The notes under the pieces are model-generated. The model was not told where the DNA came from, searched no databases, and saw only the letters and a list, made by a program, of their open reading frames with translations. 64,000 bases of DNA from Naegleria gruberi (lineage: Eukaryota). This document shows, piece by piece, positions 6,531-64,000 of this stretch. Within the stretch, counting starts at the first letter, position 1; each line of letters begins with the position of its first letter. Made by a program: the position numbers and the translations under genes. The DNA is taken from the NCBI GenBank assembly GCA_000004985.1, contig GG738876.1. One strand, given 5' to 3'.

Positions 6531-8063
6531 TTGTTCAACTTTCCACAAAAAAAAATGTCTCAATTTCCACTCCCAATCTCCCACTTTCTCATCCGAAACC
6601 AAGTTGAATTTCTTCTTCTCACCTCCGATGGTAAACTCTTCATCTCCCCTCACATGCACAATACTCGTCACATTCACATGATCCGATCACAATATTTACA
6701 AGATTTATCATCCGAAAATTTTTATATCACAATGACGGATAGAAATTTACATCAGAAAGATGTCGTGATGGAAAATACAAGTCTTGTAGAGTTTCGGTTG
6801 AAATCAATTGATTTGCTAAATGTGGAGAAGGTTAAGAAGATGAATGAGAATAGGAATGAGAAGGTGATTTTGATTAATGATGCTCATCAGGTTATTGGAA
6901 AGAATGTTAATGGAAAGGTTTCGTATTTGAGTGAAATGGAAAGTTTGATAGTGAGAGCATCAAGTTGGGAACCAATTATTTTGGAAAATTGGATATATGC
7001 TACAGAAATGTATCCTGCCTTGGATTTCTTATGGAATTGTGAGAGAGTGAGATGTTTCAGTGTGTCTGTGAATGGAAATATTTCTCTAGTCACTGAATCA
7101 AACTCAATTTATATATTTGGAAATGTGGAAAATTTTATTGGAAAGAAGTGTGAATTCAGAGGAGAGTACGAGAGAGATGGATTGAGATTTGTTCGATTGA
7201 GGCCACCAAAATTGGCCTGCACAAAGAGTCAATATTGTGAGAATGAATTTTCCACGAGTAATGACTTTCAAATCACTCAGATAGAATGTGGAATTTCACA
7301 TGTTATTGTGCAATGTAAGAATAGAGATATTTATGTGGTGGGAGAAAATTCTGCCATGCTCATTGGATTGGAACATCGATCTCTGTATAGAATGTTAACT
7401 CCTCTTAGAATTTCTGTATTGAACGATCTTGAGTATGTGGTGCAAATTGTTTGTTTGACATCTTGCACTCTTTTCTTGACAAGTGAAGGTCGCGTCCTAT
7501 TTACTGGATCGTTTAAGAGCAAATCAAATGGAATTGAAGTATTTAAACAACTAGTGGGAAGAGTTTCTAAAATTTCAGGAGAATCTTCATATGTCGCATT
7601 CCTAATGGAAGACAATCAAACAATTTGCTTGTTTAATGTATCTCTACGATTTGGAGAAATGATTTTTGAAACAAATTTGGAAAAGGGTCAAATTGCTGAC
7701 ATTAATTGTTCTTCTTCTGGAATTGAAATATTAACAAGTGAGGGAGACATTGAGAATATTTGCTTTTCCCACCAAGGAATGAAAGATATGGATGAAAACT
7801 ATGGAATGATTCCAACAAAGGTGGTACCAGTCACTGTGAAAGAATGCTACAATATTACACCTTATTATTTCGAACACACAGAAAGTGACCTCTCTCCAAT
7901 TCATCCCTGTACAAGAATTGCCCAATTTCTCATTTACAATCAAACACCATCCTACATTACAAGTATAGAAACAAGAAATGTCAAATATTTCAAAGAAAAT
8001 TTACATTCAAATTTGAAATCCCTCTTAGAAACCTTCTCTGATATATCACTTTCCACAATTTAA
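6531..8063 (+). CDS. Hypothetical protein with RCC1-like beta-propeller repeats
   Basis: 510-aa ORF with repeated blade-like units (QIECGISHVIVQCKNRDIYVVGENS; QIVCLTSCTLFLTSEGRVLFTGS; SGESSYVAFLMEDNQTICLFN). Weak family assignment. Confidence 0.4.
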   Translation: MFNFPQKKMSQFPLPISHFLIRNQVEFLLLTSDGKLFISPHMHNTRHIHMIRSQYLQDLSSENFYITMTDRNLHQKDVVMENTSLVEFRLKSIDLLNVEKVKKMNENRNEKVILINDAHQVIGKNVNGKVSYLSEMESLIVRASSWEPIILENWIYATEMYPALDFLWNCERVRCFSVSVNGNISLVTESNSIYIFGNVENFIGKKCEFRGEYERDGLRFVRLRPPKLACTKSQYCENEFSTSNDFQITQIECGISHVIVQCKNRDIYVVGENSAMLIGLEHRSLYRMLTPLRISVLNDLEYVVQIVCLTSCTLFLTSEGRVLFTGSFKSKSNGIEVFKQLVGRVSKISGESSYVAFLMEDNQTICLFNVSLRFGEMIFETNLEKGQIADINCSSSGIEILTSEGDIENICFSHQGMKDMDENYGMIPTKVVPVTVKECYNITPYYFEHTESDLSPIHPCTRIAQFLIYNQTPSYITSIETRNVKYFKENLHSNLKSLLETFSDISLSTI

Positions 8064-14519: not shown

Positions 14520-14590
14520 TCGGGTGTGGTATAGTGGTAGCATTCCAGACTGTCACTCTGGCGACCCGGGTTCAATTCCCGGCACTCGAG
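14520..14590 (+). tRNA. tRNA-Asp (anticodon GUC), intron-less
   Basis: Cloverleaf drawn by hand: acceptor TCGGGTG/CACTCGA, anticodon stem CCAGA/TCTGG with loop CTGTCAC, T-arm CCGGG-TTCAATT-CCCGG. Closely resembles eukaryotic tRNA-Asp-GTC. Confidence 0.85.
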
Positions 14591-18819: not shown

Positions 18820-20439
18820 ATGTCCTCATCAATTGCCCTGAATAATTCTAATACCTCTACCACTACTACTACCAATCCTCCTTTTGATATTTCCAAGCTT
18901 GTTACTCAAGCAGTTTTGTTACCTTCCTCCTCATCGTCATCCTTCCATAACAACCTCCCTAAATCATCATCATCATCCCCCTGTGCATTGGATAATAATA
19001 CCAATGAACAACAACAACAACAACCATTGAGTGATGATTCGATCATTCTCGAAGAAACAACCACCACCGACGTTGATAATACAGTAATTGCCACCATAAC
19101 GACAAAAGCTGCTCTAGGCAGTGGTGCTTTGATGGTTGAAGGAGTTGCCCTTGTCGACGATGAAGATGACGAAGAATCAACACCTGCCACACCAGAAGCT
19201 AATGGAGAATCCCAGCAAGAATCTTCTCAACAAGAACACCAAGAATCTGGCCTTTTAAAAGCCAAGAAGAAGAAGAATTCATTGACTAATAGTGCAGCAG
19301 CTCTTGAAGATTTGGAAACTATTTCAACCATGACAACTGTCAAGACTACAAGTACAACAAAGAAGGTTGTCAAGAGACATTCATCGCTCTCTGCTCAAAC
19401 TATGAACCAAGCAATGGATCAATCAATGAATCAATCAGCTCAACAAGAAGAACAATACACCACTCTTAAATCATCCACTCCAACAAAGAAGCAGAACAAG
19501 GAAAAGAAAGCAAGTCCTATCAATAATCTCTTCAAATCCATCAAGGGTGTCATTAAATCTTTAAAGAAGAATAAGAATAACAAGAGCACTTCTAGCTCAA
19601 CGACTTCACATAATAATAGCAAGCAAGATGGTGATTTAATCCATCAATTCTGTANNNNNNNNNNNNNNNNNNNNNNNNNNNNNNNNNNNNNNNNNNNNNN
19701 NNNNAACAAGGTGAAGCACTCACTGGTTTCTCAACAAGACGAAGAAGTCAAGACAAATAAGAAGAGAGCTCACAAGCAAGCTCCACAAACTGCTCTTCTC
19801 CCACCTCAACGACCACACGTTCAAGGCAAGAAGACTCTTGTACTTGACCTTGATGAAACATTGGTTCACTCTGTCTTTGTACATACTGACCAAGCTGACT
19901 TTGTGATTCCAATTGAAATGGATGGTAGAACATACTCTTGTTATGTTCTCAAGAGACCTGGAGTTGACGAATACTTGAGAGAACTCGGTCAATACTATGA
20001 AATTATCATCTTTACTGCTTCTCTCTCCCTGTATGCCAACCCACTTCTTGACATTCTTGATAAGCATGGTGTCATTGAAGGTAGATTATTCCGTGAACAT
20101 TGTACAAAGGTTGGTGATACTTACATTAAGGATCTCTCAAGATTGGGTCGTGATTTAGATCAAACCATTATTGTAGATAATTCTCCAAGTTGCTATGCAA
20201 TGCAACCACAAAATGCTTTGGCTTGTACCACATGGTACGATGATCCAAACGATAGAGAGCTGGGTCTTCTTGCTGATTGTCTCAAACGACTTGAAAGAGA
20301 AAAGGCTGTCTATGATGGTCTCAAGTCATGGAAGGAATTAATTTCATCAGGTGTTAATGTTACCTCATGGAATGGCGGATCAGCAATGACAGTATCCTCG
20401 ACGTCTCACCATCATCAAGTAATAAAGAAAAGAATGTAA
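18820..20439 (+). CDS. CTD small phosphatase-like protein (FCP1-homology/NIF domain), interrupted by N-gap 19656-19704
   Basis: C-terminal catalytic domain KKTLVLDLDETLVHS (DxDxT motif) ... IIIFTASLSLYANPLLDILD ... IIVDNSP. Long Ser/Thr/Gln-rich N-terminal region. The gap sits in the low-complexity linker. Confidence 0.8.
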   Translation: MSSSIALNNSNTSTTTTTNPPFDISKLVTQAVLLPSSSSSSFHNNLPKSSSSSPCALDNNTNEQQQQQPLSDDSIILEETTTTDVDNTVIATITTKAALGSGALMVEGVALVDDEDDEESTPATPEANGESQQESSQQEHQESGLLKAKKKKNSLTNSAAALEDLETISTMTTVKTTSTTKKVVKRHSSLSAQTMNQAMDQSMNQSAQQEEQYTTLKSSTPTKKQNKEKKASPINNLFKSIKGVIKSLKKNKNNKSTSSSTTSHNNSKQDGDLIHQFCXXXXXXXXXXXXXXXXXNKVKHSLVSQQDEEVKTNKKRAHKQAPQTALLPPQRPHVQGKKTLVLDLDETLVHSVFVHTDQADFVIPIEMDGRTYSCYVLKRPGVDEYLRELGQYYEIIIFTASLSLYANPLLDILDKHGVIEGRLFREHCTKVGDTYIKDLSRLGRDLDQTIIVDNSPSCYAMQPQNALACTTWYDDPNDRELGLLADCLKRLEREKAVYDGLKSWKELISSGVNVTSWNGGSAMTVSSTSHHHQVIKKRM

Positions 20440-20698
20440 ATAACAAATCATTTTCACAACTATTATTGTTGAACTGTTAGCTAAAAGTGTAAAATATTTG
20501 TCAGTTTTCTTTACAAAGTTCATGAGTACCGGCAAATACCTTCGCATGAGCGAATTGCTTATTGTAAACGTTACAATTTTGTAATCAAGATGTCAATCAC
20601 TGTAGTTTATCTCTAAATAACTGTAAATGCATTGTATAATCTGTCTCACAGTGAATTTGCTAGATATTGTCATTCTTTATTCAATCTTTCTGGAGAGT

Positions 20699-20780
20699 GA
20701 TAACCAGAGTTTTGAATAAGTGTTTAAACAGCTAAATTTGTCAGCATCTTCAAGTTGTGCAAGAAATTCAAAACTCTGGT
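20699..20780. repeat. Hairpin-forming inverted repeat (about 18-bp arms, about 46-nt loop) in 3' flank of the CTD-phosphatase gene
   Basis: ATAACCAGAGTTTTGAAT (20699-20716) pairs with ATTCAAAACTCTGGTTAC (20763-20780), 17/18 complementary. Confidence 0.5.
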
Positions 20781-20991
20781 TACGATAGGTTTGGTAATAA
20801 AGCAGTGATAAAGCTCCACAATTTTTGAATAATAAGTTACTGCAATTTTTTAGAACCACTTATCATTAATGATTAACTTTTTAAATACAAAATATGAAGA
20901 GGCCTTATATTATAAACTAGACATTAGGGGGAAGATATTTATCTATAAATATAAGGTGCTGTCATTAAGGAAAAAGAATAGGAAGAAAAAT

Positions 20992-21072
20992 TGCAGAAGG
21001 TGGGATTTGAACCCACGAAGCTTGCGCAGTAGAACTTGAGTCTACCCCCTTTGACCACTCGGGAACCCCTGC
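20992..21072 (-). tRNA. tRNA-Leu (anticodon CAA), intron-less, long variable arm
   Basis: Minus-strand GCAGGGGTTCCCGAGTGGTCAAAGGGGGTAGACTCAAGTTCTACTGCGCAAGCTTCGTGGGTTCAAATCCCACCTTCTGCA. 3-bp D stem, anticodon loop CT-CAA-GT, 12-nt variable arm, T-arm GTGGG-TTCAAAT-CCCAC. Confidence 0.8.
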
Positions 21073-21219
21073 TTCACATTCATGATGAAAATTATCCTGA
21101 TTTGACATTACCCAAGACACTAAGGCACTAGGTTTGAAATGGTTGCCTTAATTTTCCAGTTCCTTGTATTAGTAGTTATTTTTATATTATTAGAGTTTTT
21201 ATTTACAATTTATTCATTG

Positions 21220-22521
21220 TTATTGATTGAATGCCTCAGAGAATGCTGCCCAATTAGGACTTTCTTCCAAGTCGAAAACAGCAAAAATAACTTGTTTGAG
21301 GCATGAGTTTTCATACTTTTTCAAACATTTTCTCCACAATTTGGCTTCTCTGAATGGATCATGTAAGAATGCTCCACATCCACTGGCACCTGTTACAAGT
21401 GTGTGAATATTCTGATCGGCACACGTCTTGAGAACTCCCTCAATATCTAGAATGAGTCGTTGTTCCAATTCCTTTTCATTTGTAATATTTCCATAACCAT
21501 ACCAGGAGTAAAAGTAATTTCTCTCCGAGTATGGAGTAAAGAAGGGAACAAATGGTCTGAAATCTGCAAATGCAGCAGCAATCATGTAGCAATCGACTGG
21601 CTCACTACCAGTCACGAATTTTGTCTTGGTAAAGTAATTGCCACCTGGAGGCAAATGAAGACCCTTCTTGTAAGAAACCCACCTTCCTCTCACAAAGCTC
21701 TTCATTCCAGTATCAATTAATTTTCCAACAGTTCCCAATAGAGCAGCACCATCACAATTGGTTGCAACTTCTTCCTCTTGAGATCCTCCATAATCAACAC
21801 AATATGTTCCACATACATTGTGTGCATTAGCAAAATTGACCCAGGCAACTTTCTTACTAGAATCATTTAATTCCTTTGAAACCAGCTCAACAACTTCTTG
21901 TGTTCCCATTCTCAGTGACCTGGTTTTTAGTAGGTTTGAATCTAAAAGCTCATCAATTAAAAGAGGAGCTTCAGGTTTCAATTCAGGACAAAACCAATCA
22001 TATAAAGTGAGAGAGCTCAAATGGTCAATTAATTGAGAACGTTTCTCCTCTACCTGTTCTTCACTCAAGTTCATAGTACCGTCCCAAGCTACATCTACTC
22101 TCGATCCAATAGCATATACTCTTCCTCTCAATAATCTTTTATCTGCATGACTTTTCGAATAGCTCAACTTTCGAACATTCTCTCTCGACATTCTATTCGT
22201 CACTCTCAAGCAAAAGTTTTGGAATTCCTCTCCATGTAAATCAAAACTTCTCGATCCAATTCTATGAAATGCTTCTCTGTACTTTTTGAGAATTTCCTCA
22301 ACAGATAATGAAGATTCACAAGGTTGAATATCATTTAACCAATTTAAACAAGTTTGATCTTCCACCAATTTTAAATATAATTTTTCATTAATTATTGTTT
22401 TGATCTTGTTGTTTTCCTGATCCGATTCTTGTTGATGAATTATTGTTTTAAATTGTTTCAAACCGGAAGGAAATTCAGCTGGATAATCATTACGAAGTTT
22501 TGGCAATGTCGAGTTGATCAT
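21220..22521 (-). CDS. Bacterial-type poly(ADP-ribose) glycohydrolase-like macrodomain protein (DUF2263-like)
   Basis: VAWVNFANAHNVCG...GGSQEEE matches the PARG signature (NFASA..GGG..QEE). The later LVTGASGCGAFLHDP matches the second conserved block (GAWGCGVFGNDP). 433 aa. Confidence 0.55.
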   Translation of the reverse strand: MINSTLPKLRNDYPAEFPSGLKQFKTIIHQQESDQENNKIKTIINEKLYLKLVEDQTCLNWLNDIQPCESSLSVEEILKKYREAFHRIGSRSFDLHGEEFQNFCLRVTNRMSRENVRKLSYSKSHADKRLLRGRVYAIGSRVDVAWDGTMNLSEEQVEEKRSQLIDHLSSLTLYDWFCPELKPEAPLLIDELLDSNLLKTRSLRMGTQEVVELVSKELNDSSKKVAWVNFANAHNVCGTYCVDYGGSQEEEVATNCDGAALLGTVGKLIDTGMKSFVRGRWVSYKKGLHLPPGGNYFTKTKFVTGSEPVDCYMIAAAFADFRPFVPFFTPYSERNYFYSWYGYGNITNEKELEQRLILDIEGVLKTCADQNIHTLVTGASGCGAFLHDPFREAKLWRKCLKKYENSCLKQVIFAVFDLEESPNWAAFSEAFNQ

Positions 22522-22754
22522 TTTTTTCTATTATTATTAATATTATGAATAAACCACCATTTTCTTATCAGTTCCATGAAGAAGTATTTTCAGAAGAGTT
22601 ATTTCCCAATGTGCTGAGAATTGATGATATCATCAAAAAGATGACGTCATTTTGCCGCCATTTTTTTCACGGGTGGCCGACGCATATTCAAAATGGCCTG
22701 AAATCGTCACTGGGAAAACATGGGCCAAGTTGACTTCCAACGATATATATAATA

Positions 22755-23902
22755 TCACACCACATAAAATTAACAGTACGTGACGGTCATATATAAACTA
22801 CTATTCATGAATTGTAATGGTTTCAATCGTTGTATTACACGAGTAAATAATCAATTTGTCATTTTGAAAAATTACAATTTTAATTACAACAACTTAAAAA
22901 CCACATTTTCTAAATTTCATATGGTAATCTCTCTGAATTATATTGTATACATACCAAAAAGTAATGTATCAATTATTTGCTATTTAAAACCTTGTATTTT
23001 TAAATATTTATCTATTAAACTTTAACTACTATATTTGGAATAAAATTTTCAATATTCTCAAGAAATAATTAACCAATGTTTTCATGGTTAATGTTAAATT
23101 ATATAAAGATGATAATCAAGCAAAATAATATAAATTGTTAATGATTTAGTGTTTCAGGATTCAAATCTTATGTTTTTGTCAATTTATCTTCCTTATTTTT
23201 CAGTATTTTAAAAAAAGCCGAATCAGAAAGATTGTAATTGTAATTTAATTTAGTTTCGTATATTGTTGGAGATGTAAATCATTAAGAATAAAAACTAGAT
23301 ACGAAAAAACATTGAAATTCTTGCTGGGCTAGTGGTAAATTTTTAACTTGGTCAAAATTCAAAAAATGCCACCAAAGCCAAGCAAGTTCATGCTTCGATC
23401 AAAAATTATGAAATCAACAAGATCCAAGAACAAGAATGATGATGATGATCTCTCTAATATTTGTCCTGGTATTGATTTAAAAAGAATTGGTGATGTAAAA
23501 TTGATTAATTTAATTGGAAAGAAAGTTTTTATTCGTGATGGTCGTTTATTCACCCATTCCGAACCTATTACAATATCATCTAGACAATGTACATGTTCTT
23601 CTTGTGGAAAATTGTATAGAAATTCATTACGAAAGTACCATGACAGAACATTAGCAAAGAAAAATCAACAGTTCCGTAAAACAATCAAATCACTCAAAAG
23701 GAAAGTCAAAATATTGTCACATAATGATGATGTTATTGTAGAAAAATTGAGATCACTGTTGGAACGTAATATTATCACACCAAATCATTTCTTTTATAGA
23801 TTTATATCTAACACGATCCTCAATGCCGACAAATCTTCACATTACTTCATGAATAGTAGTTTATATATGACCGTCACGTACTGTTAATTTTATGTGGTGT
23901 GA
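22755..23902. mobile_element. TIR-bounded element (non-autonomous DNA-transposon-like), about 1.15 kb, abuts N-gap 23903-23952
   Basis: Perfect 57-bp terminal inverted repeats TCACACCACATAAAATTAACAGTACGTGACGGTCATATATAAACTACTATTCATGAA at 22755-22811 and reverse-complemented at 23846-23902. AT-rich interior plus one 179-aa ORF. Confidence 0.6.
23348..23887 (+). CDS. ORF inside the TIR element: basic 179-aa protein with a Cys/His cluster (CTCSSCGKLYRNSLRKYH) and a coiled-coil-like tail; not a DDE transposase
   Basis: Track ORF. The protein is Lys/Arg-rich, the Cys/His cluster is a possible zinc-binding motif, and the 3' end runs into the right TIR. Confidence 0.35.
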   Translation: MVKIQKMPPKPSKFMLRSKIMKSTRSKNKNDDDDLSNICPGIDLKRIGDVKLINLIGKKVFIRDGRLFTHSEPITISSRQCTCSSCGKLYRNSLRKYHDRTLAKKNQQFRKTIKSLKRKVKILSHNDDVIVEKLRSLLERNIITPNHFFYRFISNTILNADKSSHYFMNSSLYMTVTYC

Positions 23903-24024
23903 NNNNNNNNNNNNNNNNNNNNNNNNNNNNNNNNNNNNNNNNNNNNNNNNNNCTGAAATTTTATTAATTTTATCTTTTTTTGCTTAATCATCATCATCCT
24001 AGGATGAAAATGCATAATTTATTA

Positions 24025-24603
24025 TTACAAGACATACATACACACGATGGTATAAATGGCCAAGCAAACAGTACTCAATAATCCCCATAACCAAACCAAT
24101 GTTCTCAATGGAGGCAAATTGAACCAGTACATGAAAAAGTAGACCATTCTAGAGAGGGTAAAGCTTGCCATCAGAATATTCCCCACAATGGCATTCCACA
24201 AGGAATATTGAGGATCGGTGATTGATGTATAACTCATTGTAGAGATGATAACGTATGGAATTGCAATCATGATGAATGGCACAACATTTTCAATGTCATT
24301 TCTGTGAATGTTGCCAGCCAATTCGGCACGAGAGGCCCATGAGGATGGTTTCTGATCTTCGAGGGAGTAATTGCTATTGTTGAGTGCTTGTTTTTGCTTT
24401 TTAGTCGACATGGCATCTATCATTTTAGAAATACCTGTTATTTGAGCAGCAATGAATAGACGAAACATTAAGAGAAAGACATTATAGACAAATCCTTGAA
24501 GGACAGGATTGTAGAGAATGAGTGGTTGCATTTTGTTTTGTTGTGTGAGTTTTTCTCTTTTACAAAGAGTTGAGCTATTTGAATGAAATATTGTGTTGTT
24601 CAC
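24025..24603 (-). CDS. MAPEG family protein, microsomal glutathione S-transferase 1-like
   Basis: NIHRNDIENVVPFIMIAIPYV aligns to the MGST1 RAHLNDLENIIPFLGIGLLY block, and RMVYFFMYWFNLPPLRTLVW to the RIYHTIAYLTPLPQPNRAL block. 4 predicted TM helices; 192 aa. Confidence 0.65.
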   Translation of the reverse strand: MNNTIFHSNSSTLCKREKLTQQNKMQPLILYNPVLQGFVYNVFLLMFRLFIAAQITGISKMIDAMSTKKQKQALNNSNYSLEDQKPSSWASRAELAGNIHRNDIENVVPFIMIAIPYVIISTMSYTSITDPQYSLWNAIVGNILMASFTLSRMVYFFMYWFNLPPLRTLVWLWGLLSTVCLAIYTIVCMYVL

Positions 24604-58753: not shown

Positions 58754-61700
58754 NNNNNNNNNNNNNNNNNNNNNNNNNNNNNNNNNNNNNNNNNNNNNNN
58801 NNNNNNNNNNNNNNNNNNNNNNNNNNNNNNNNNNNNNNNNNNNNNNNNNNNNNNNNNNNNNNNNNNNNNNNNNNNNNNNNNNNNNNNNNNNNNNNNNNNN
58901 NNNNNNNNNNNNNNNNNNNNNNNNNNNNNNNNNNNNNNNNNNNNNNNNNNNNNNNNNNNNNNNNNNNNNNNNNNNNNNNNNNNNNNNNNNNNNNNNNNNN
59001 NNNNNNNNNNNNNNNNNNNNNNNNNNNNNNNNNNNNNNNNNNNNNNNNNNNNNNNNNNNNNNNNNNNNNNNNNNNNNNNNNNNNNNNNNNNNNNNNNNNN
59101 NNNNNNNNNNNNNNNNNNNNNNNNNNNNNNNNNNNNNNNNNNNNNNNNNNNNNNNNNNNNNNNNNNNNNNNNNNNNNNNNNNNNNNNNNNNNNNNNNNNN
59201 NNNNNNNNNNNNNNNNNNNNNNNNNNNNNNNNNNNNNNNNNNNNNNNNNNNNNNNNNNNNNNNNNNNNNNNNNNNNNNNNNNNNNNNNNNNNNNNNNNNN
59301 NNNNNNNNNNNNNNNNNNNNNNNNNNNNNNNNNNNNNNNNNNNNNNNNNNNNNNNNNNNNNNNNNNNNNNNNNNNNNNNNNNNNNNNNNNNNNNNNNNNN
59401 NNNNNNNNNNNNNNNNNNNNNNNNNNNNNNNNNNNNNNNNNNNNNNNNNNNNNNNNNNNNNNNNNNNNNNNNNNNNNNNNNNNNNNNNNNNNNNNNNNNN
59501 NNNNNNNNNNNNNNNNNNNNNNNNNNNNNNNNNNNNNNNNNNNNNNNNNNNNNNNNNNNNNNNNNNNNNNNNNNNNNNNNNNNNNNNNNNNNNNNNNNNN
59601 NNNNNNNNNNNNNNNNNNNNNNNNNNNNNNNNNNNNNNNNNNNNNNNNNNNNNNNNNNNNNNNNNNNNNNNNNNNNNNNNNNNNNNNNNNNNNNNNNNNN
59701 NNNNNNNNNNNNNNNNNNNNNNNNNNNNNNNNNNNNNNNNNNNNNNNNNNNNNNNNNNNNNNNNNNNNNNNNNNNNNNNNNNNNNNNNNNNNNNNNNNNN
59801 NNNNNNNNNNNNNNNNNNNNNNNNNNNNNNNNNNNNNNNNNNNNNNNNNNNNNNNNNNNNNNNNNNNNNNNNNNNNNNNNNNNNNNNNNNNNNNNNNNNN
59901 NNNNNNNNNNNNNNNNNNNNNNNNNNNNNNNNNNNNNNNNNNNNNNNNNNNNNNNNNNNNNNNNNNNNNNNNNNNNNNNNNNNNNNNNNNNNNNNNNNNN
60001 NNNNNNNNNNNNNNNNNNNNNNNNNNNNNNNNNNNNNNNNNNNNNNNNNNNNNNNNNNNNNNNNNNNNNNNNNNNNNNNNNNNNNNNNNNNNNNNNNNNN
60101 NNNNNNNNNNNNNNNNNNNNNNNNNNNNNNNNNNNNNNNNNNNNNNNNNNNNNNNNNNNNNNNNNNNNNNNNNNNNNNNNNNNNNNNNNNNNNNNNNNNN
60201 NNNNNNNNNNNNNNNNNNNNNNNNNNNNNNNNNNNNNNNNNNNNNNNNNNNNNNNNNNNNNNNNNNNNNNNNNNNNNNNNNNNNNNNNNNNNNNNNNNNN
60301 NNNNNNNNNNNNNNNNNNNNNNNNNNNNNNNNNNNNNNNNNNNNNNNNNNNNNNNNNNNNNNNNNNNNNNNNNNNNNNNNNNNNNNNNNNNNNNNNNNNN
60401 NNNNNNNNNNNNNNNNNNNNNNNNNNNNNNNNNNNNNNNNNNNNNNNNNNNNNNNNNNNNNNNNNNNNNNNNNNNNNNNNNNNNNNNNNNNNNNNNNNNN
60501 NNNNNNNNNNNNNNNNNNNNNNNNNNNNNNNNNNNNNNNNNNNNNNNNNNNNNNNNNNNNNNNNNNNNNNNNNNNNNNNNNNNNNNNNNNNNNNNNNNNN
60601 NNNNNNNNNNNNNNNNNNNNNNNNNNNNNNNNNNNNNNNNNNNNNNNNNNNNNNNNNNNNNNNNNNNNNNNNNNNNNNNNNNNNNNNNNNNNNNNNNNNN
60701 NNNNNNNNNNNNNNNNNNNNNNNNNNNNNNNNNNNNNNNNNNNNNNNNNNNNNNNNNNNNNNNNNNNNNNNNNNNNNNNNNNNNNNNNNNNNNNNNNNNN
60801 NNNNNNNNNNNNNNNNNNNNNNNNNNNNNNNNNNNNNNNNNNNNNNNNNNNNNNNNNNNNNNNNNNNNNNNNNNNNNNNNNNNNNNNNNNNNNNNNNNNN
60901 NNNNNNNNNNNNNNNNNNNNNNNNNNNNNNNNNNNNNNNNNNNNNNNNNNNNNNNNNNNNNNNNNNNNNNNNNNNNNNNNNNNNNNNNNNNNNNNNNNNN
61001 NNNNNNNNNNNNNNNNNNNNNNNNNNNNNNNNNNNNNNNNNNNNNNNNNNNNNNNNNNNNNNNNNNNNNNNNNNNNNNNNNNNNNNNNNNNNNNNNNNNN
61101 NNNNNNNNNNNNNNNNNNNNNNNNNNNNNNNNNNNNNNNNNNNNNNNNNNNNNNNNNNNNNNNNNNNNNNNNNNNNNNNNNNNNNNNNNNNNNNNNNNNN
61201 NNNNNNNNNNNNNNNNNNNNNNNNNNNNNNNNNNNNNNNNNNNNNNNNNNNNNNNNNNNNNNNNNNNNNNNNNNNNNNNNNNNNNNNNNNNNNNNNNNNN
61301 NNNNNNNNNNNNNNNNNNNNNNNNNNNNNNNNNNNNNNNNNNNNNNNNNNNNNNNNNNNNNNNNNNNNNNNNNNNNNNNNNNNNNNNNNNNNNNNNNNNN
61401 NNNNNNNNNNNNNNNNNNNNNNNNNNNNNNNNNNNNNNNNNNNNNNNNNNNNNNNNNNNNNNNNNNNNNNNNNNNNNNNNNNNNNNNNNNNNNNNNNNNN
61501 NNNNNNNNNNNNNNNNNNNNNNNNNNNNNNNNNNNNNNNNNNNNNNNNNNNNNNNNNNNNNNNNNNNNNNNNNNNNNNNNNNNNNNNNNNNNNNNNNNNN
61601 NNNNNNNNNNNNNNNNNNNNNNNNNNNNNNNNNNNNNNNNNNNNNNNNNNNNNNNNNNNNNNNNNNNNNNNNNNNNNNNNNNNNNNNNNNNNNNNNNNNN

Positions 61701-62899
61701 NNNNNNNNNNNNNNNNNNNNNNNNNNNNNNNNNNNNNNNNNNNNNNNNNNNNNNNNNNNNNNNNNNNNNNNNNNNNNNNNNNNNNNNNNNNNNNNNNNNN
61801 NNNNNNNNNNNNNNNNNNNNNNNNNNNNNNNNNNNNNNNNNNNNNNNNNNNNNNNNNNNNNNNNNNNNNNNNNNNNNNNNNNNNNNNNNNNNNNNNNNNN
61901 NNNNNNNNNNNNNNNNNNNNNNNNNNNNNNNNNNNNNNNNNNNNNNNNNNNNNNNNNNNNNNNNNNNNNNNNNNNNNNNNNNNNNNNNNNNNNNNNNNNN
62001 NNNNNNNNNNNNNNNNNNNNNNNNNNNNNNNNNNNNNNNNNNNNNNNNNNNNNNNNNNNNNNNNNNNNNNNNNNNNNNNNNNNNNNNNNNNNNNNNNNNN
62101 NNNNNNNNNNNNNNNNNNNNNNNNNNNNNNNNNNNNNNNNNNNNNNNNNNNNNNNNNNNNNNNNNNNNNNNNNNNNNNNNNNNNNNNNNNNNNNNNNNNN
62201 NNNNNNNNNNNNNNNNNNNNNNNNNNNNNNNNNNNNNNNNNNNNNNNNNNNNNNNNNNNNNNNNNNNNNNNNNNNNNNNNNNNNNNNNNNNNNNNNNNNN
62301 NNNNNNNNNNNNNNNNNNNNNNNNNNNNNNNNNNNNNNNNNNNNNNNNNNNNNNNNNNNNNNNNNNNNNNNNNNNNNNNNNNNNNNNNNNNNNNNNNNNN
62401 NNNNNNNNNNNNNNNNNNNNNNNNNNNNNNNNNNNNNNNNNNNNNNNNNNNNNNNNNNNNNNNNNNNNNNNNNNNNNNNNNNNNNNNNNNNNNNNNNNNN
62501 NNNNNNNNNNNNNNNNNNNNNNNNNNNNNNNNNNNNNNNNNNNNNNNNNNNNNNNNNNNNNNNNNNNNNNNNNNNNNNNNNNNNNNNNNNNNNNNNNNNN
62601 NNNNNNNNNNNNNNNNNNNNNNNNNNNNNNNNNNNNNNNNNNNNNNNNNNNNNNNNNNNNNNNNNNNNNNNNNNNNNNNNNNNNNNNNNNNNNNNNNNNN
62701 NNNNNNNNNNNNNNNNNNNNNNNNNNNNNNNNNNNNNNNNNNNNNNNNNNNNNNNNNNNNNNNNNNNNNNNNNNNNNNNNNNNNNNNNNNNNNNNNNNNN
62801 NNNNNNNNNNNNNNNNNNNNNNNNNNNNNNNNNNNNNNNNNNNNNNNNNNNNNNNNNNNNNNNNNNNNNNNNNNNNNNNNNNNNNNNNNNNNNNNNNNN
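58754..62899. other. Scaffold gap (4146 N) between subtelomere and terminal telomere-associated sequence
   Basis: Uninterrupted run of N. The giant six-frame ORFs spanning it are artefacts. Confidence 0.99.
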
Positions 62900-63600: not shown

Positions 63601-64000
63601 TTGGGTTTGGGTTTGGGGTTGGGTTTGGGTTTGGGTTTGGGTTTGGGTTTGGGTTTGGGTTTGGGTTTGGGTTTGGGTTTGGGTTTGGGTTTGGGTTTGG
63701 GTTTGGGTTTGGGTTTGGGTTTGGGTTTGGGTTTGGGTTTGGGTTTGGGTTTGGGTTTGGGTTTGGGTTTGGGTTTGGGTTTGGGTTTGGGTTTGGGTTT
63801 GGGTTTGGGTTTGGGTTTGGGTTTGGGTTTGGGTTTGGGTTTGGGTTTGGGTTTGGGTTTGGGTTTGGGTTTGGGTTTGGGTTTGGGTTTGGGTTTGGGT
63901 TTGGGTTTGGGTTTGGGTTTGGGTTGGGTTTGGGTTTGGGTTTGGGTTTGGGTTTGGGTTTGGGTTTGGGTTTGGGTTTGGGTTTGGGTTTGGGTTTGGC
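63601..64000 (+). repeat. Telomere repeat array (TTTGGG)n with occasional TTGGG/TTTGGGG variants, about 65 units, G-rich strand 5'->3' toward the window end (right chromosome terminus)
   Basis: Direct reading. The array begins after the unique junction ...GAGATAATCAATTAAGATGACTAAAAATCAAAATG and runs to the last base of the window. Confidence 0.9.

What the first reader, a model, noticed from the sequence alone, without database searches (positions are those of the whole stretch)
22755..23902. Compact element with perfect 57-bp terminal inverted repeats carrying a small basic Cys/His protein gene
TCACACCACATAAAATTAACAGTACGTGACGGTCATATATAAACTACTATTCATGAA occurs at 22755-22811 and as an exact reverse complement at 23846-23902. 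It brackets 1.15 kb of AT-rich DNA and one 179-aa ORF (Lys/Arg-rich, CTCSSCGKLYRNSLRKYH cluster, coiled-coil tail) with no DDE/transposase features. Perfect TIRs imply recent mobility or recent copying. An assembly gap starts exactly at the right TIR edge, as expected for a multi-copy element. The TSD cannot be read because of that gap. The TIR termini (TCACACC...) do not match the classic hAT/CACTA/Tc1/piggyBac termini I can recall. This could be a non-autonomous member of an uncharacterised TIR family that has captured or encodes a DNA-binding accessory protein.
Basis: seen in the sequence. Interest (0 to 1): 0.65.

Follow-up and report, generated by a model that had tools for sequence, protein, structure and literature searches.

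The report
Internally deleted P-like transposon in Naegleria
The inverted repeats are real and bracket a broken copy of a P-element-type "cut-and-paste" transposon in the amoeba Naegleria gruberi; its small basic protein is the front end of the transposase left after an internal deletion, which is an ordinary kind of find.

Summary
Bases 22755-22811 and 23846-23902 are a perfect 57-nt inverted repeat, unique in the window, and a 50-N gap follows directly. The window is Naegleria gruberi DNA, ending in its TTTGGG telomere repeat.

The ORF (173 aa from ATG 23366) is not a captured or accessory gene. An exhaustive HMMER search of 1.84 billion proteins gave one relative (E 2.9e-21, 41% identity). 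In its metagenome contig that protein continues, through a 35-nt in-frame intron, into a 602-aa protein. This protein passes Pfam's threshold for the P-element/THAP9-type RNase H domain and aligns collinearly with catalytic D230 and D303 and the D(2)H motif of Drosophila P transposase.

Homology of the window ORF stops at codon 160, exactly where the right arm begins; codons 161-173 are read-through into the arm. So this is an internally deleted, non-autonomous copy that keeps a Cys/His module and a leucine-zipper-like coiled coil, the layout of the Drosophila KP element.

Copy number, the target-site duplication and an autonomous partner could not be tested, because the N. gruberi genome is not in the searchable collections. 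The repeat's outer edge is set by the contig end. A 7-nt direct repeat (CTGAAAT) suggests 107-nt arms as an alternative. Known kind; low to moderate interest.

The parts
22755..22811 (+). Left arm of the inverted repeat (minimum extent), TCACACCACATAAAATTAACAGTACGTGACGGTCATATATAAACTACTATTCATGAA. Its inner end lies in an 18-nt near-palindrome, 22799-22816.
22812..23365 (+). 554-nt non-coding 5' region of the element (21.8% GC, stops in all frames). It is presumably the promoter and 5' leader of the transposase gene (inferred).
23366..23845 (+). Codons 1-160: the N-terminal remnant of a P-like transposase. It is homologous to residues 1-174 of the metagenomic protein P0055 (40-41% identity).
23462..23605 (+). 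Cys/His module (aa 33-80). C33, H64, C77 and C80 are conserved in the homologue. The order is not that of THAP.
   Evidence: no THAP hit
23651..23758 (+). Leucine-zipper-like coiled coil (aa 96-131). Heptad a positions are L F L L I L; d positions are N I V D L.
   Evidence: weak DivIC and bZIP matches; long helix 100-133 in a low-confidence model
23846..23887 (+). Codons 161-173 plus the stop: read-through of the truncated gene into the right arm (FMNSSLYMTVTYC*).
23846..23902 (-). Right arm of the inverted repeat. Its inner edge (23845/23846) is the inferred deletion junction. Its outer edge is the contig end.
23903..23952 (.). 50-N assembly gap hiding the right flank, or the outer part of the right arm.
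22705..22754 (+). Candidate outward extension of the left arm, exactly 50 nt. It belongs to the element only if the gap holds its reverse complement.
   Evidence: inference, untested
22698..22704 (+). Candidate 7-bp target-site duplication CTGAAAT, left copy.
23953..23959 (+). Candidate 7-bp target-site duplication CTGAAAT, right copy (the first 7 nt after the gap).

Best explanation
This is a non-autonomous, internally deleted copy of a cut-and-paste DNA transposon of the P-element/THAP9 (TNP-like) kind. It sits in the intergenic DNA between a microbial-type PARG gene and a MAPEG gene of Naegleria gruberi, about 40 kb from a chromosome end. The copy keeps both terminal inverted repeats (at least 57 nt), the 554-nt 5' leader and the first 160 codons of the transposase gene. 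Those codons encode a basic tail, a Cys/His module that probably binds DNA, a leucine-zipper-like coiled coil and the first helix of the next domain. A deletion removed everything from codon 161 to a point inside the right repeat, so the frame now runs 13 codons into the repeat and stops. Shown: the repeat; the homology of the ORF to the N-terminus of a protein that carries a TNP-type RNase H domain; the absence of any catalytic part in the window; the end of homology at the arm boundary. Inferred: that a deletion produced this layout; that the copy can move only if a full-length transposase is supplied in trans; and, by analogy with the Drosophila KP element, that the truncated protein, if made, would bind the element's ends and dimerise and so inhibit rather than catalyse transposition.
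For: Organism: the left neighbour is 100% identical to NAEGRDRAFT_58416. The window ends in the TTTGGG array reported as the N. gruberi telomere candidate (PMC3622300). Repeat. Homology: one hit in 1.84e9 representative proteins, P0055, E 2.9e-21, query 22-164 to 27-178; BLASTP E 5e-31; the start codon, C33, H64, C77 and C80 are conserved. In contig L001, P0055 is followed 8 nt later by a 340-aa ORF. A 35-nt GT..AG intron joins them in frame. The spliced 602-aa protein hits PF21787 (TNP-like RNase H N-terminal domain) at 32.8 bits, above the cut-off of 24.6, E 9.9e-8, across the splice site (ORF2 alone gives 28.3 bits). Against the Drosophila P transposase (sequence verified as PDB 6p5a_A) the alignment is collinear. 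It pairs SWDEM with AFD230EM, SSDGANGN with VSD303LGTGN, FDYSHMIKRARN with SDTPHLIKLVRN (the D(2)H motif, PMC3698922) and LPSISTL with LPSRTTL. The coiled coils also align. The domain order DBD, zipper, HTH, RNase H is that of P transposase (PMC7776569). tblastn of the 602-aa protein on the window hits only 23438-23857. Codon 161 starts at 23846, the first base of the right arm. The ORF is open over 183 codons where the other frames have 7-9% stops. Without the element the PARG-MAPEG spacer would be about 355 nt instead of 1503 nt.
Against: No second copy, no autonomous copy and no target-site duplication was seen, and none could be looked for in the N. gruberi genome with these tools. The superfamily link rests on a single metagenomic homologue. 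Pairwise BLASTP of that homologue to P transposase is not significant on its own (E 0.12). The N-terminal module is not a THAP domain, and no GTP-binding insertion or C-terminal RNase H half was detected in the homologue. No annotated N. gruberi protein matches the ORF, so an active partner may not exist. The right arm is the last 57 nt of a short contig, with no independent sequence to confirm it. Repressor activity is pure analogy.
Confidence: 0.75

Rival explanations
1. One reading: a complete small TIR element whose 173/179-aa gene is a captured or accessory DNA-binding protein, mobilised by an unrelated, unknown transposase.
For: The ORF is intact and basic, has Cys/His residues and a coiled coil, and has no Pfam family.
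Against: The only homologue carries the same N-terminus fused to a TNP-type RNase H domain. Homology ends exactly at the arm boundary, and the last 13 codons are repeat sequence. This is the signature of truncation, not of a complete gene.
Confidence: 0.05
2. Assembly artefact: the right arm is a chimeric or fold-back read tail at a contig end. The real locus is either a full-length element whose remainder lies in the gap, or has no right repeat at this position.
For: The arm is the last 57 nt of a 4.2-kb contig bounded by two 50-N gaps. Perfect identity and an abrupt inner boundary are also what a chimera gives. No independent sequence of this locus was obtainable.
Against: Of the six contig ends checked in the window, this is the only one that repeats nearby sequence in inverted orientation. 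A random chimera would rarely join two points 1 kb apart in a 41-Mb genome. The window also has a 4146-N gap, so gaps appear to be sized, and 50 N argues against a hidden 1.5-2 kb. An inverted repeat bracketing a transposase fragment is what a real deleted element looks like.
Confidence: 0.08
3. An immobile single-copy relic: a real deleted P-like element with no living relatives in the genome. The ORF would then be neither expressed nor functional and the repeats no longer used.
For: No annotated N. gruberi protein resembles the ORF among 1.84e9 representatives that do include N. gruberi proteins. There is no other copy in 64 kb. N. gruberi has only about 5% repeats (PMC6125883).
Against: The 57/57 identical arms and the 173-codon open frame in 27%-GC DNA indicate little decay since the deletion. 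The contig break at the repeat edge is typical of multi-copy sequence.
Confidence: 0.12

Closest known systems
Drosophila melanogaster KP element (internally deleted P element encoding a truncated repressor; Lee, Mul & Rio 1996 and Lee, Beall & Rio 1998, cited in PMC7776569)
   Same: Both have TIRs at each end, an internal deletion that removes the whole catalytic region, and an ORF that keeps the N-terminal DNA-binding module plus the leucine-zipper dimerisation region and stops a few codons after the junction. From my own knowledge KP is 199 + 8 aa; here it is 160 + 13 aa. By the collinear alignment, the truncation falls at the start of the HTH domain.
   Different: The host is a heterolobosean amoeba, not a fly. 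The N-terminal module is not THAP. The arms are at least 57 nt rather than 31. The deletion reaches into or up to the right arm, so no 3' subterminal sequence is left. Repressor activity, copy number and TSD are untested.
P superfamily transposons outside insects (zebrafish Pdre/THAP9 with internally deleted copies; P-like elements of Trichomonas vaginalis and rust fungi)
   Same: These are cut-and-paste elements with TIRs and a TNP-type RNase H transposase. Families typically consist of a few full-length and many internally deleted copies (PMC7776569; PMC3698922; PMC3164196).
   Different: Those families have 7-9-bp TSDs and, where described, THAP domains. Here the TSD is unread and THAP is absent. 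The nearest protein is only 41% identical and comes from an unidentified metagenomic organism.
BuT5, the MITE partner of the Drosophila buzzatii P element (PMC3698922)
   Same: It is a roughly 1-kb non-autonomous derivative that shares only its ends with its P-like master element.
   Different: BuT5 has no coding capacity. This copy retains 160 codons of the transposase.
Kolobok elements, a superfamily reported from Naegleria (PMC9587614)
   Same: They are TIR DNA transposons present in the same genus.
   Different: Kolobok has TTAA TSDs and 5'-RR..YY-3' termini. Here the visible terminus is TCAC, the flank is AATA, and the transposase remnant is of the P type.

Membership tests
P superfamily (P element / THAP9 / TNP-like) DNA transposons | Transposase with a TNP-type RNase H catalytic domain (DDE triad, D(2)H motif) encoded by the element | tested here: not met
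   This copy has no catalytic part. tblastn of the 602-aa homologue hits only 23438-23857 in the 64 kb. That is expected for a deletion derivative, but it makes the copy non-autonomous.
P superfamily (P element / THAP9 / TNP-like) DNA transposons | Homology of the encoded protein to a protein that carries that catalytic domain | tested here: met
   ORF to P0055: E 2.9e-21. The spliced 602-aa protein hits PF21787 at 32.8 bits, above the 24.6 cut-off. D230, D303 and the D(2)H motif align with 6p5a_A. The third catalytic residue was not identified.
P superfamily (P element / THAP9 / TNP-like) DNA transposons | N-terminal THAP C2CH zinc finger (C-x2-4-C-x35-53-C-x2-H with conserved P, W, F, P) | tested here: not met
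   No PF05485 hit at E<=1. The conserved ligand candidates are C33, H64, C77 and C80 in a different order, and the ORF has no Trp.
P superfamily (P element / THAP9 / TNP-like) DNA transposons | Coiled-coil / leucine-zipper dimerisation region after the DNA-binding domain | tested here: met
   Five heptads at aa 96-131 with L/F/L/L/I/L at a positions and N/I/V/D/L at d positions. The region aligns with the P transposase zipper. This is sequence evidence only.
P superfamily (P element / THAP9 / TNP-like) DNA transposons | GTP-binding insertion domain splitting the RNase H fold | tested here: not met
   Only PF21787 is detected in the 602-aa homologue; PF21788 and PF21789 are not. The test was by Pfam only, on one sequence.
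P superfamily (P element / THAP9 / TNP-like) DNA transposons | Terminal inverted repeats | tested here: met
   57 nt, 100% complementary. The outer limit is unknown because of the gap.
P superfamily (P element / THAP9 / TNP-like) DNA transposons | 7-9-bp target-site duplication | tested here: inconclusive
   The right flank is in the 50-N gap. CTGAAAT at 22698-22704 recurs at 23953-23959, which fits a 7-bp TSD only if the gap holds the reverse complement of 22705-22754. The chance of this is 1.2e-4 at that offset and 0.009 anywhere within 60 nt.
P superfamily (P element / THAP9 / TNP-like) DNA transposons | Family of several copies, including a full-length autonomous one, in the same genome | not testable with these tools
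   The N. gruberi genome is not in the DNA collections. The arm 21-mer is absent from viral, metagenome and prokaryote contigs. No annotated N. gruberi protein matches the ORF.
KP-type truncated-transposase repressor | Retains the DNA-binding and dimerisation regions, lacks the catalytic domain, and has an ORF that is open and ends just after the deletion junction | tested here: met
KP-type truncated-transposase repressor | The protein is expressed, binds the element's ends and inhibits transposition | not testable with these tools
   No expression or binding data are available. The structure model is unusable (pLDDT 43.7).
MITE | Short (under about 800 bp), no coding capacity, high copy number | tested here: not met
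   The element is 1148 nt with a 173-codon ORF. Copy number is unknown.
Kolobok | TTAA TSD and 5'-RR..YY-3' termini (PMC9587614) | tested here: not met
   The visible terminus is TCACACC and the left flank is ...TATAATA.

The most novel reading that the evidence does not exclude
The copy belongs to a P-like lineage of heterolobosean amoebae that replaced the THAP finger with a different Cys/His (C-H-C-C) DNA-binding module. Its truncated 173-aa product would be a functional KP-style inhibitor of its own family, that is, deletion-derived transposase repressors arising independently far outside Drosophila.
Probability: 0.12. Interest if true: 0.45.

Novelty: new member of a known kind. Interest (0 to 1): 0.25.

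Why it matters
It adds a P-element-type transposon, in deleted form, to the sparse repeat inventory of Naegleria gruberi, a reference free-living excavate. It also shows that the N-terminal domain of this lineage is very rare in sequence space: one relative among 1.84 billion representative proteins. In practical terms it explains an unannotated ORF and a contig break in the reference assembly. It also gives a concrete prediction for closing the gap: 50 nt of repeat followed by CTGAAAT. It does not change how such elements are thought to work.

Tried and rejected
- **Family and structure searches on the ORF.** Pfam and PDB sequence searches found nothing significant.
- **Word-indexed protein searches.** The search with the ORF gave no hit. 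The search with the 602-aa homologue also gave nothing; its candidate list saturated at 8000, so this result is uninformative.
- **Exact-protein look-ups.** Look-ups of the ORF (173-aa and 179-aa forms), of three neighbouring N. gruberi proteins and of P0001 were all 'not on record'. No second assembly of the locus was obtained.
- **Willaertia magna.** The PARG locus L002 shares no synteny beyond the PARG gene, so it is not a usable empty site.
- **Collection scans.** Scans of JGI metagenome contigs and IMG/VR with the N-terminal alignment and the 602-aa protein gave no relatives. The arm 21-mer is absent from viral, metagenome and prokaryote contigs.
- **Structure prediction.** AlphaFold2 on the two-sequence alignment gave pLDDT 43.7, so no fold search was run.
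- **PDB profile search.** A search with the two-sequence alignment found nothing.
- **Sub-terminal motifs.** The test for motifs shared between 22705-22754 and the rest of the element gave 20 shared 7-mers against 19.4 in controls, so it is uninformative.
- **Gap size.** I tried to size the other 50-N gap (19655-19704) from the gene it interrupts. The frame is kept across it, but the gap lies in a low-complexity linker, so this is inconclusive.
- **Other superfamilies.** Tc1/mariner was considered because a TA precedes TCAC, and Kolobok because it is reported in Naegleria. Both were rejected on the identity of the transposase remnant and, for Kolobok, on the termini.

Full report
**Observation.** Bases 22755-22811 and 23846-23902 are 57 nt long, perfectly complementary and 1034 nt apart. 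A 32-nt part of the arm occurs nowhere else in the 64 kb even with three mismatches, and none is expected by chance. BLASTN of the whole element against the window finds only itself and its own arms. A run of exactly 50 N follows the right arm directly. The element has 26.6% GC, and 21.8% in the 554 nt between the left arm and the ORF, against 35-36% in the flanks.

Three details differ from the finding. With an ATG start the ORF is 173 aa (23366-23887), not 179 aa. Its last 13 codons and its stop codon lie inside the right arm. The contig that carries the element is only 4.2 kb (19705-23902), and the perfect match ends at the contig end, so 57 nt is a minimum and the terminus TCACACC is not established.

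**Organism and setting.** The gene to the left (21220-22521, minus strand) is 100% identical over 433 aa to NAEGRDRAFT_58416 of Naegleria gruberi, a microbial-type PARG. The window ends in about 400 nt of TTTGGG repeats, the candidate N. gruberi telomere repeat (PMC3622300). The window is therefore the end of an N. gruberi chromosome, from a gene-dense 41-Mb genome with about 5% repeats (PMC6125883). The element lies between the 5' end of the PARG gene and the 3' end of a MAPEG gene (24025-24603; PF01124, E 6e-12). Without the element that spacer would be about 355 nt instead of 1503 nt.

**What the ORF is.** Pfam, PDB sequences and the word-indexed protein search gave nothing. The exhaustive HMMER search of 1.84 billion representative proteins gave exactly one hit. 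This is P0055, 270 aa, E 2.9e-21, 41% identity, aligning query 22-164 with 27-178 (BLASTP E 5e-31). The two proteins share the start (MP), C33, H64, C77, C80, the KLYRN-LRKY stretch and TPN-FFY.

P0055 comes from a 1884-nt metagenome contig (L001, 31% GC). There it is followed 8 nt later by a 340-aa ORF on the same strand. A 35-nt GT..AG intron (814-848) joins the two in frame into a 602-aa protein. The second ORF alone passes Pfam's gathering threshold for PF21787, the N-terminal RNase H domain of P-element/THAP9-type transposases (28.3 bits against 24.6). The spliced protein scores higher (32.8 bits, E 9.9e-8), and the match spans the splice site (aa 248-385), which supports the intron model.

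I wrote the Drosophila P transposase sequence from memory and verified it as PDB 6p5a_A. BLASTP against it is not significant on its own (E 0.12). It is collinear, however, and it pairs SWDEM with AFD230EM, SSDGANGN with VSD303LGTGN, FDYSHMIKRARN with SDTPHLIKLVRN (the D(2)H motif listed for the superfamily in PMC3698922) and LPSISTL with LPSRTTL. The coiled coils also align with each other. The domain order (DNA-binding module, zipper, HTH, RNase H) is that described for P transposase (PMC7776569).

**Anatomy of the window copy.**
- Codons 1-24 are a basic tail.
- Codons 33-80 hold the four conserved Cys/His residues.
- Codons 96-131 form five clean heptads, with L F L L I L at a positions and N I V D L at d positions.
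- Codons 132-156 align with the start of the next domain of the homologue.
- Codon 161 begins at 23846, the first base of the right arm, and similarity to the homologue ends there.

The 602-aa protein finds no other match in the 64 kb. The frame is open for 183 codons, whereas the other two forward frames have 26 and 36 stops over the element, so the copy has decayed little.

The simplest reading is an internal deletion. It ran from codon 161 to a point at or inside the right repeat and left a non-autonomous element. Its ORF is the front end of the transposase fused to 13 codons of repeat sequence. This is the layout of internally deleted P elements, and of the KP element in particular (PMC7776569; KP sizes are from my own knowledge).

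**How it most likely works.**
- *Shown:* the element has inverted repeats and a transposase remnant, and no catalytic domain.
- *Inferred:* it can move only if a full-length transposase of the same family is made elsewhere in the genome.
- *Inferred:* the truncated protein, if expressed, would bind the element's ends through the Cys/His module and dimerise through the zipper, and so compete with the transposase, as KP does.

I put about 0.75 on the deleted P-like element and about 0.1-0.2 on a functional repressor.

**Termini and duplication.** Two models remain.
- *Model 1.* The terminus is at 22755, and the duplication is hidden in the gap.
- *Model 2.* The seven bases CTGAAAT at 22698-22704 recur as the first seven bases after the gap (23953-23959). 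The stretch between the left copy and the left arm (22705-22754) is exactly 50 nt, the length of the N run. If the gap holds its reverse complement, the element is 22705-23952, with 107-nt arms and a 7-bp duplication. That fits the 7-8 bp of the P superfamily (PMC3698922).

An identical 7-mer at one fixed offset occurs with frequency 1.2e-4 in this window, and anywhere within 60 nt with frequency 0.009. Two gaps of exactly 50 N in one window suggest that 50 is a floor value rather than a measurement, so I regard the two models as about equally likely. Only sequence across the gap can decide.

**Limits.** The N. gruberi genome is not held in any DNA collection I could scan. Copy number, an autonomous partner, the duplication and an empty site are therefore untested (look-ups). 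The Willaertia magna PARG locus is not syntenic. No annotated N. gruberi protein resembles the ORF, although N. gruberi proteins are in the searched libraries. Any full-length partner is thus unannotated or absent. The structure model was too poor to use (pLDDT 43.7).

An assembly artefact at the contig end cannot be excluded without reads, but it is unlikely. Of the six contig ends checked in the window, this is the only one that repeats nearby sequence in inverted orientation. A repeat that happens to bracket a transposase fragment is also not what a random chimera would give.

**Comparison and verdict.** The element works like, and most probably is, a deleted member of the P/THAP9-type superfamily. 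The membership features met are TIRs, a zipper, and homology to a TNP-type RNase H protein with aligned D, D and D(2)H. Those not met are a THAP finger and, in the homologue, a detectable GTP-binding insertion. The duplication is inconclusive and copy number is untestable here. It is a new member of a known kind, with a possibly novel N-terminal DNA-binding module. Interest is low to moderate.

Noticed in passing
window 63601-64000: There are about 66 tandem TTTGGG units, with the G-rich strand running 5'->3' to the window end. This is a telomere array matching the candidate N. gruberi telomere repeat of PMC3622300, so the window is a chromosome end and the element is subtelomeric (about 40 kb in).
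   Followed up: partly
window 21220-22521 (-): The microbial-type PARG gene (NAEGRDRAFT_58416) has a patchy set of close relatives at about 50% identity: Willaertia, Acrasis, Physarum and several bdelloid or related rotifers (Adineta, Rotaria, Didymodactylos). The pattern suggests horizontal transfer or repeated loss.
   Followed up: no
window 19655-19704: A second gap of exactly 50 N interrupts an FCP1/NIF-type phosphatase-like gene (18820-20439). The reading frame is the same on both sides of the 50 N, which is weakly consistent with the gap length being about right (1 in 3 by chance).
   Followed up: partly
window 22799-22816: An 18-nt near-palindrome, TACTATTCATGAATTGTA, straddles the inner end of the left arm, with the perfect 8-nt palindrome TTCATGAA at its centre. 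It could be a dimer-binding site or the point where the deletion ended; it was not tested.
   Followed up: no
L001 814-848: The metagenomic P-like transposase gene has a 35-nt GT..AG intron that joins two ORFs in frame. The gene caller had split it into two proteins with no Pfam annotation. The contig is 31% GC with an A-rich start context like the window's, so the source is probably a related protist.
   Followed up: partly
window 14520-14590 (+) and 20992-21072 (-): There are tRNA-Asp(GTC) and tRNA-Leu(CAA) genes. The latter lies 150 nt downstream of the PARG gene.
   Followed up: no
window 58754-62899: A 4146-N gap lies about 700 nt before the subtelomeric AT-rich region. The list of ORFs of 1400 aa across it is an artefact of N codons.
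   Followed up: no
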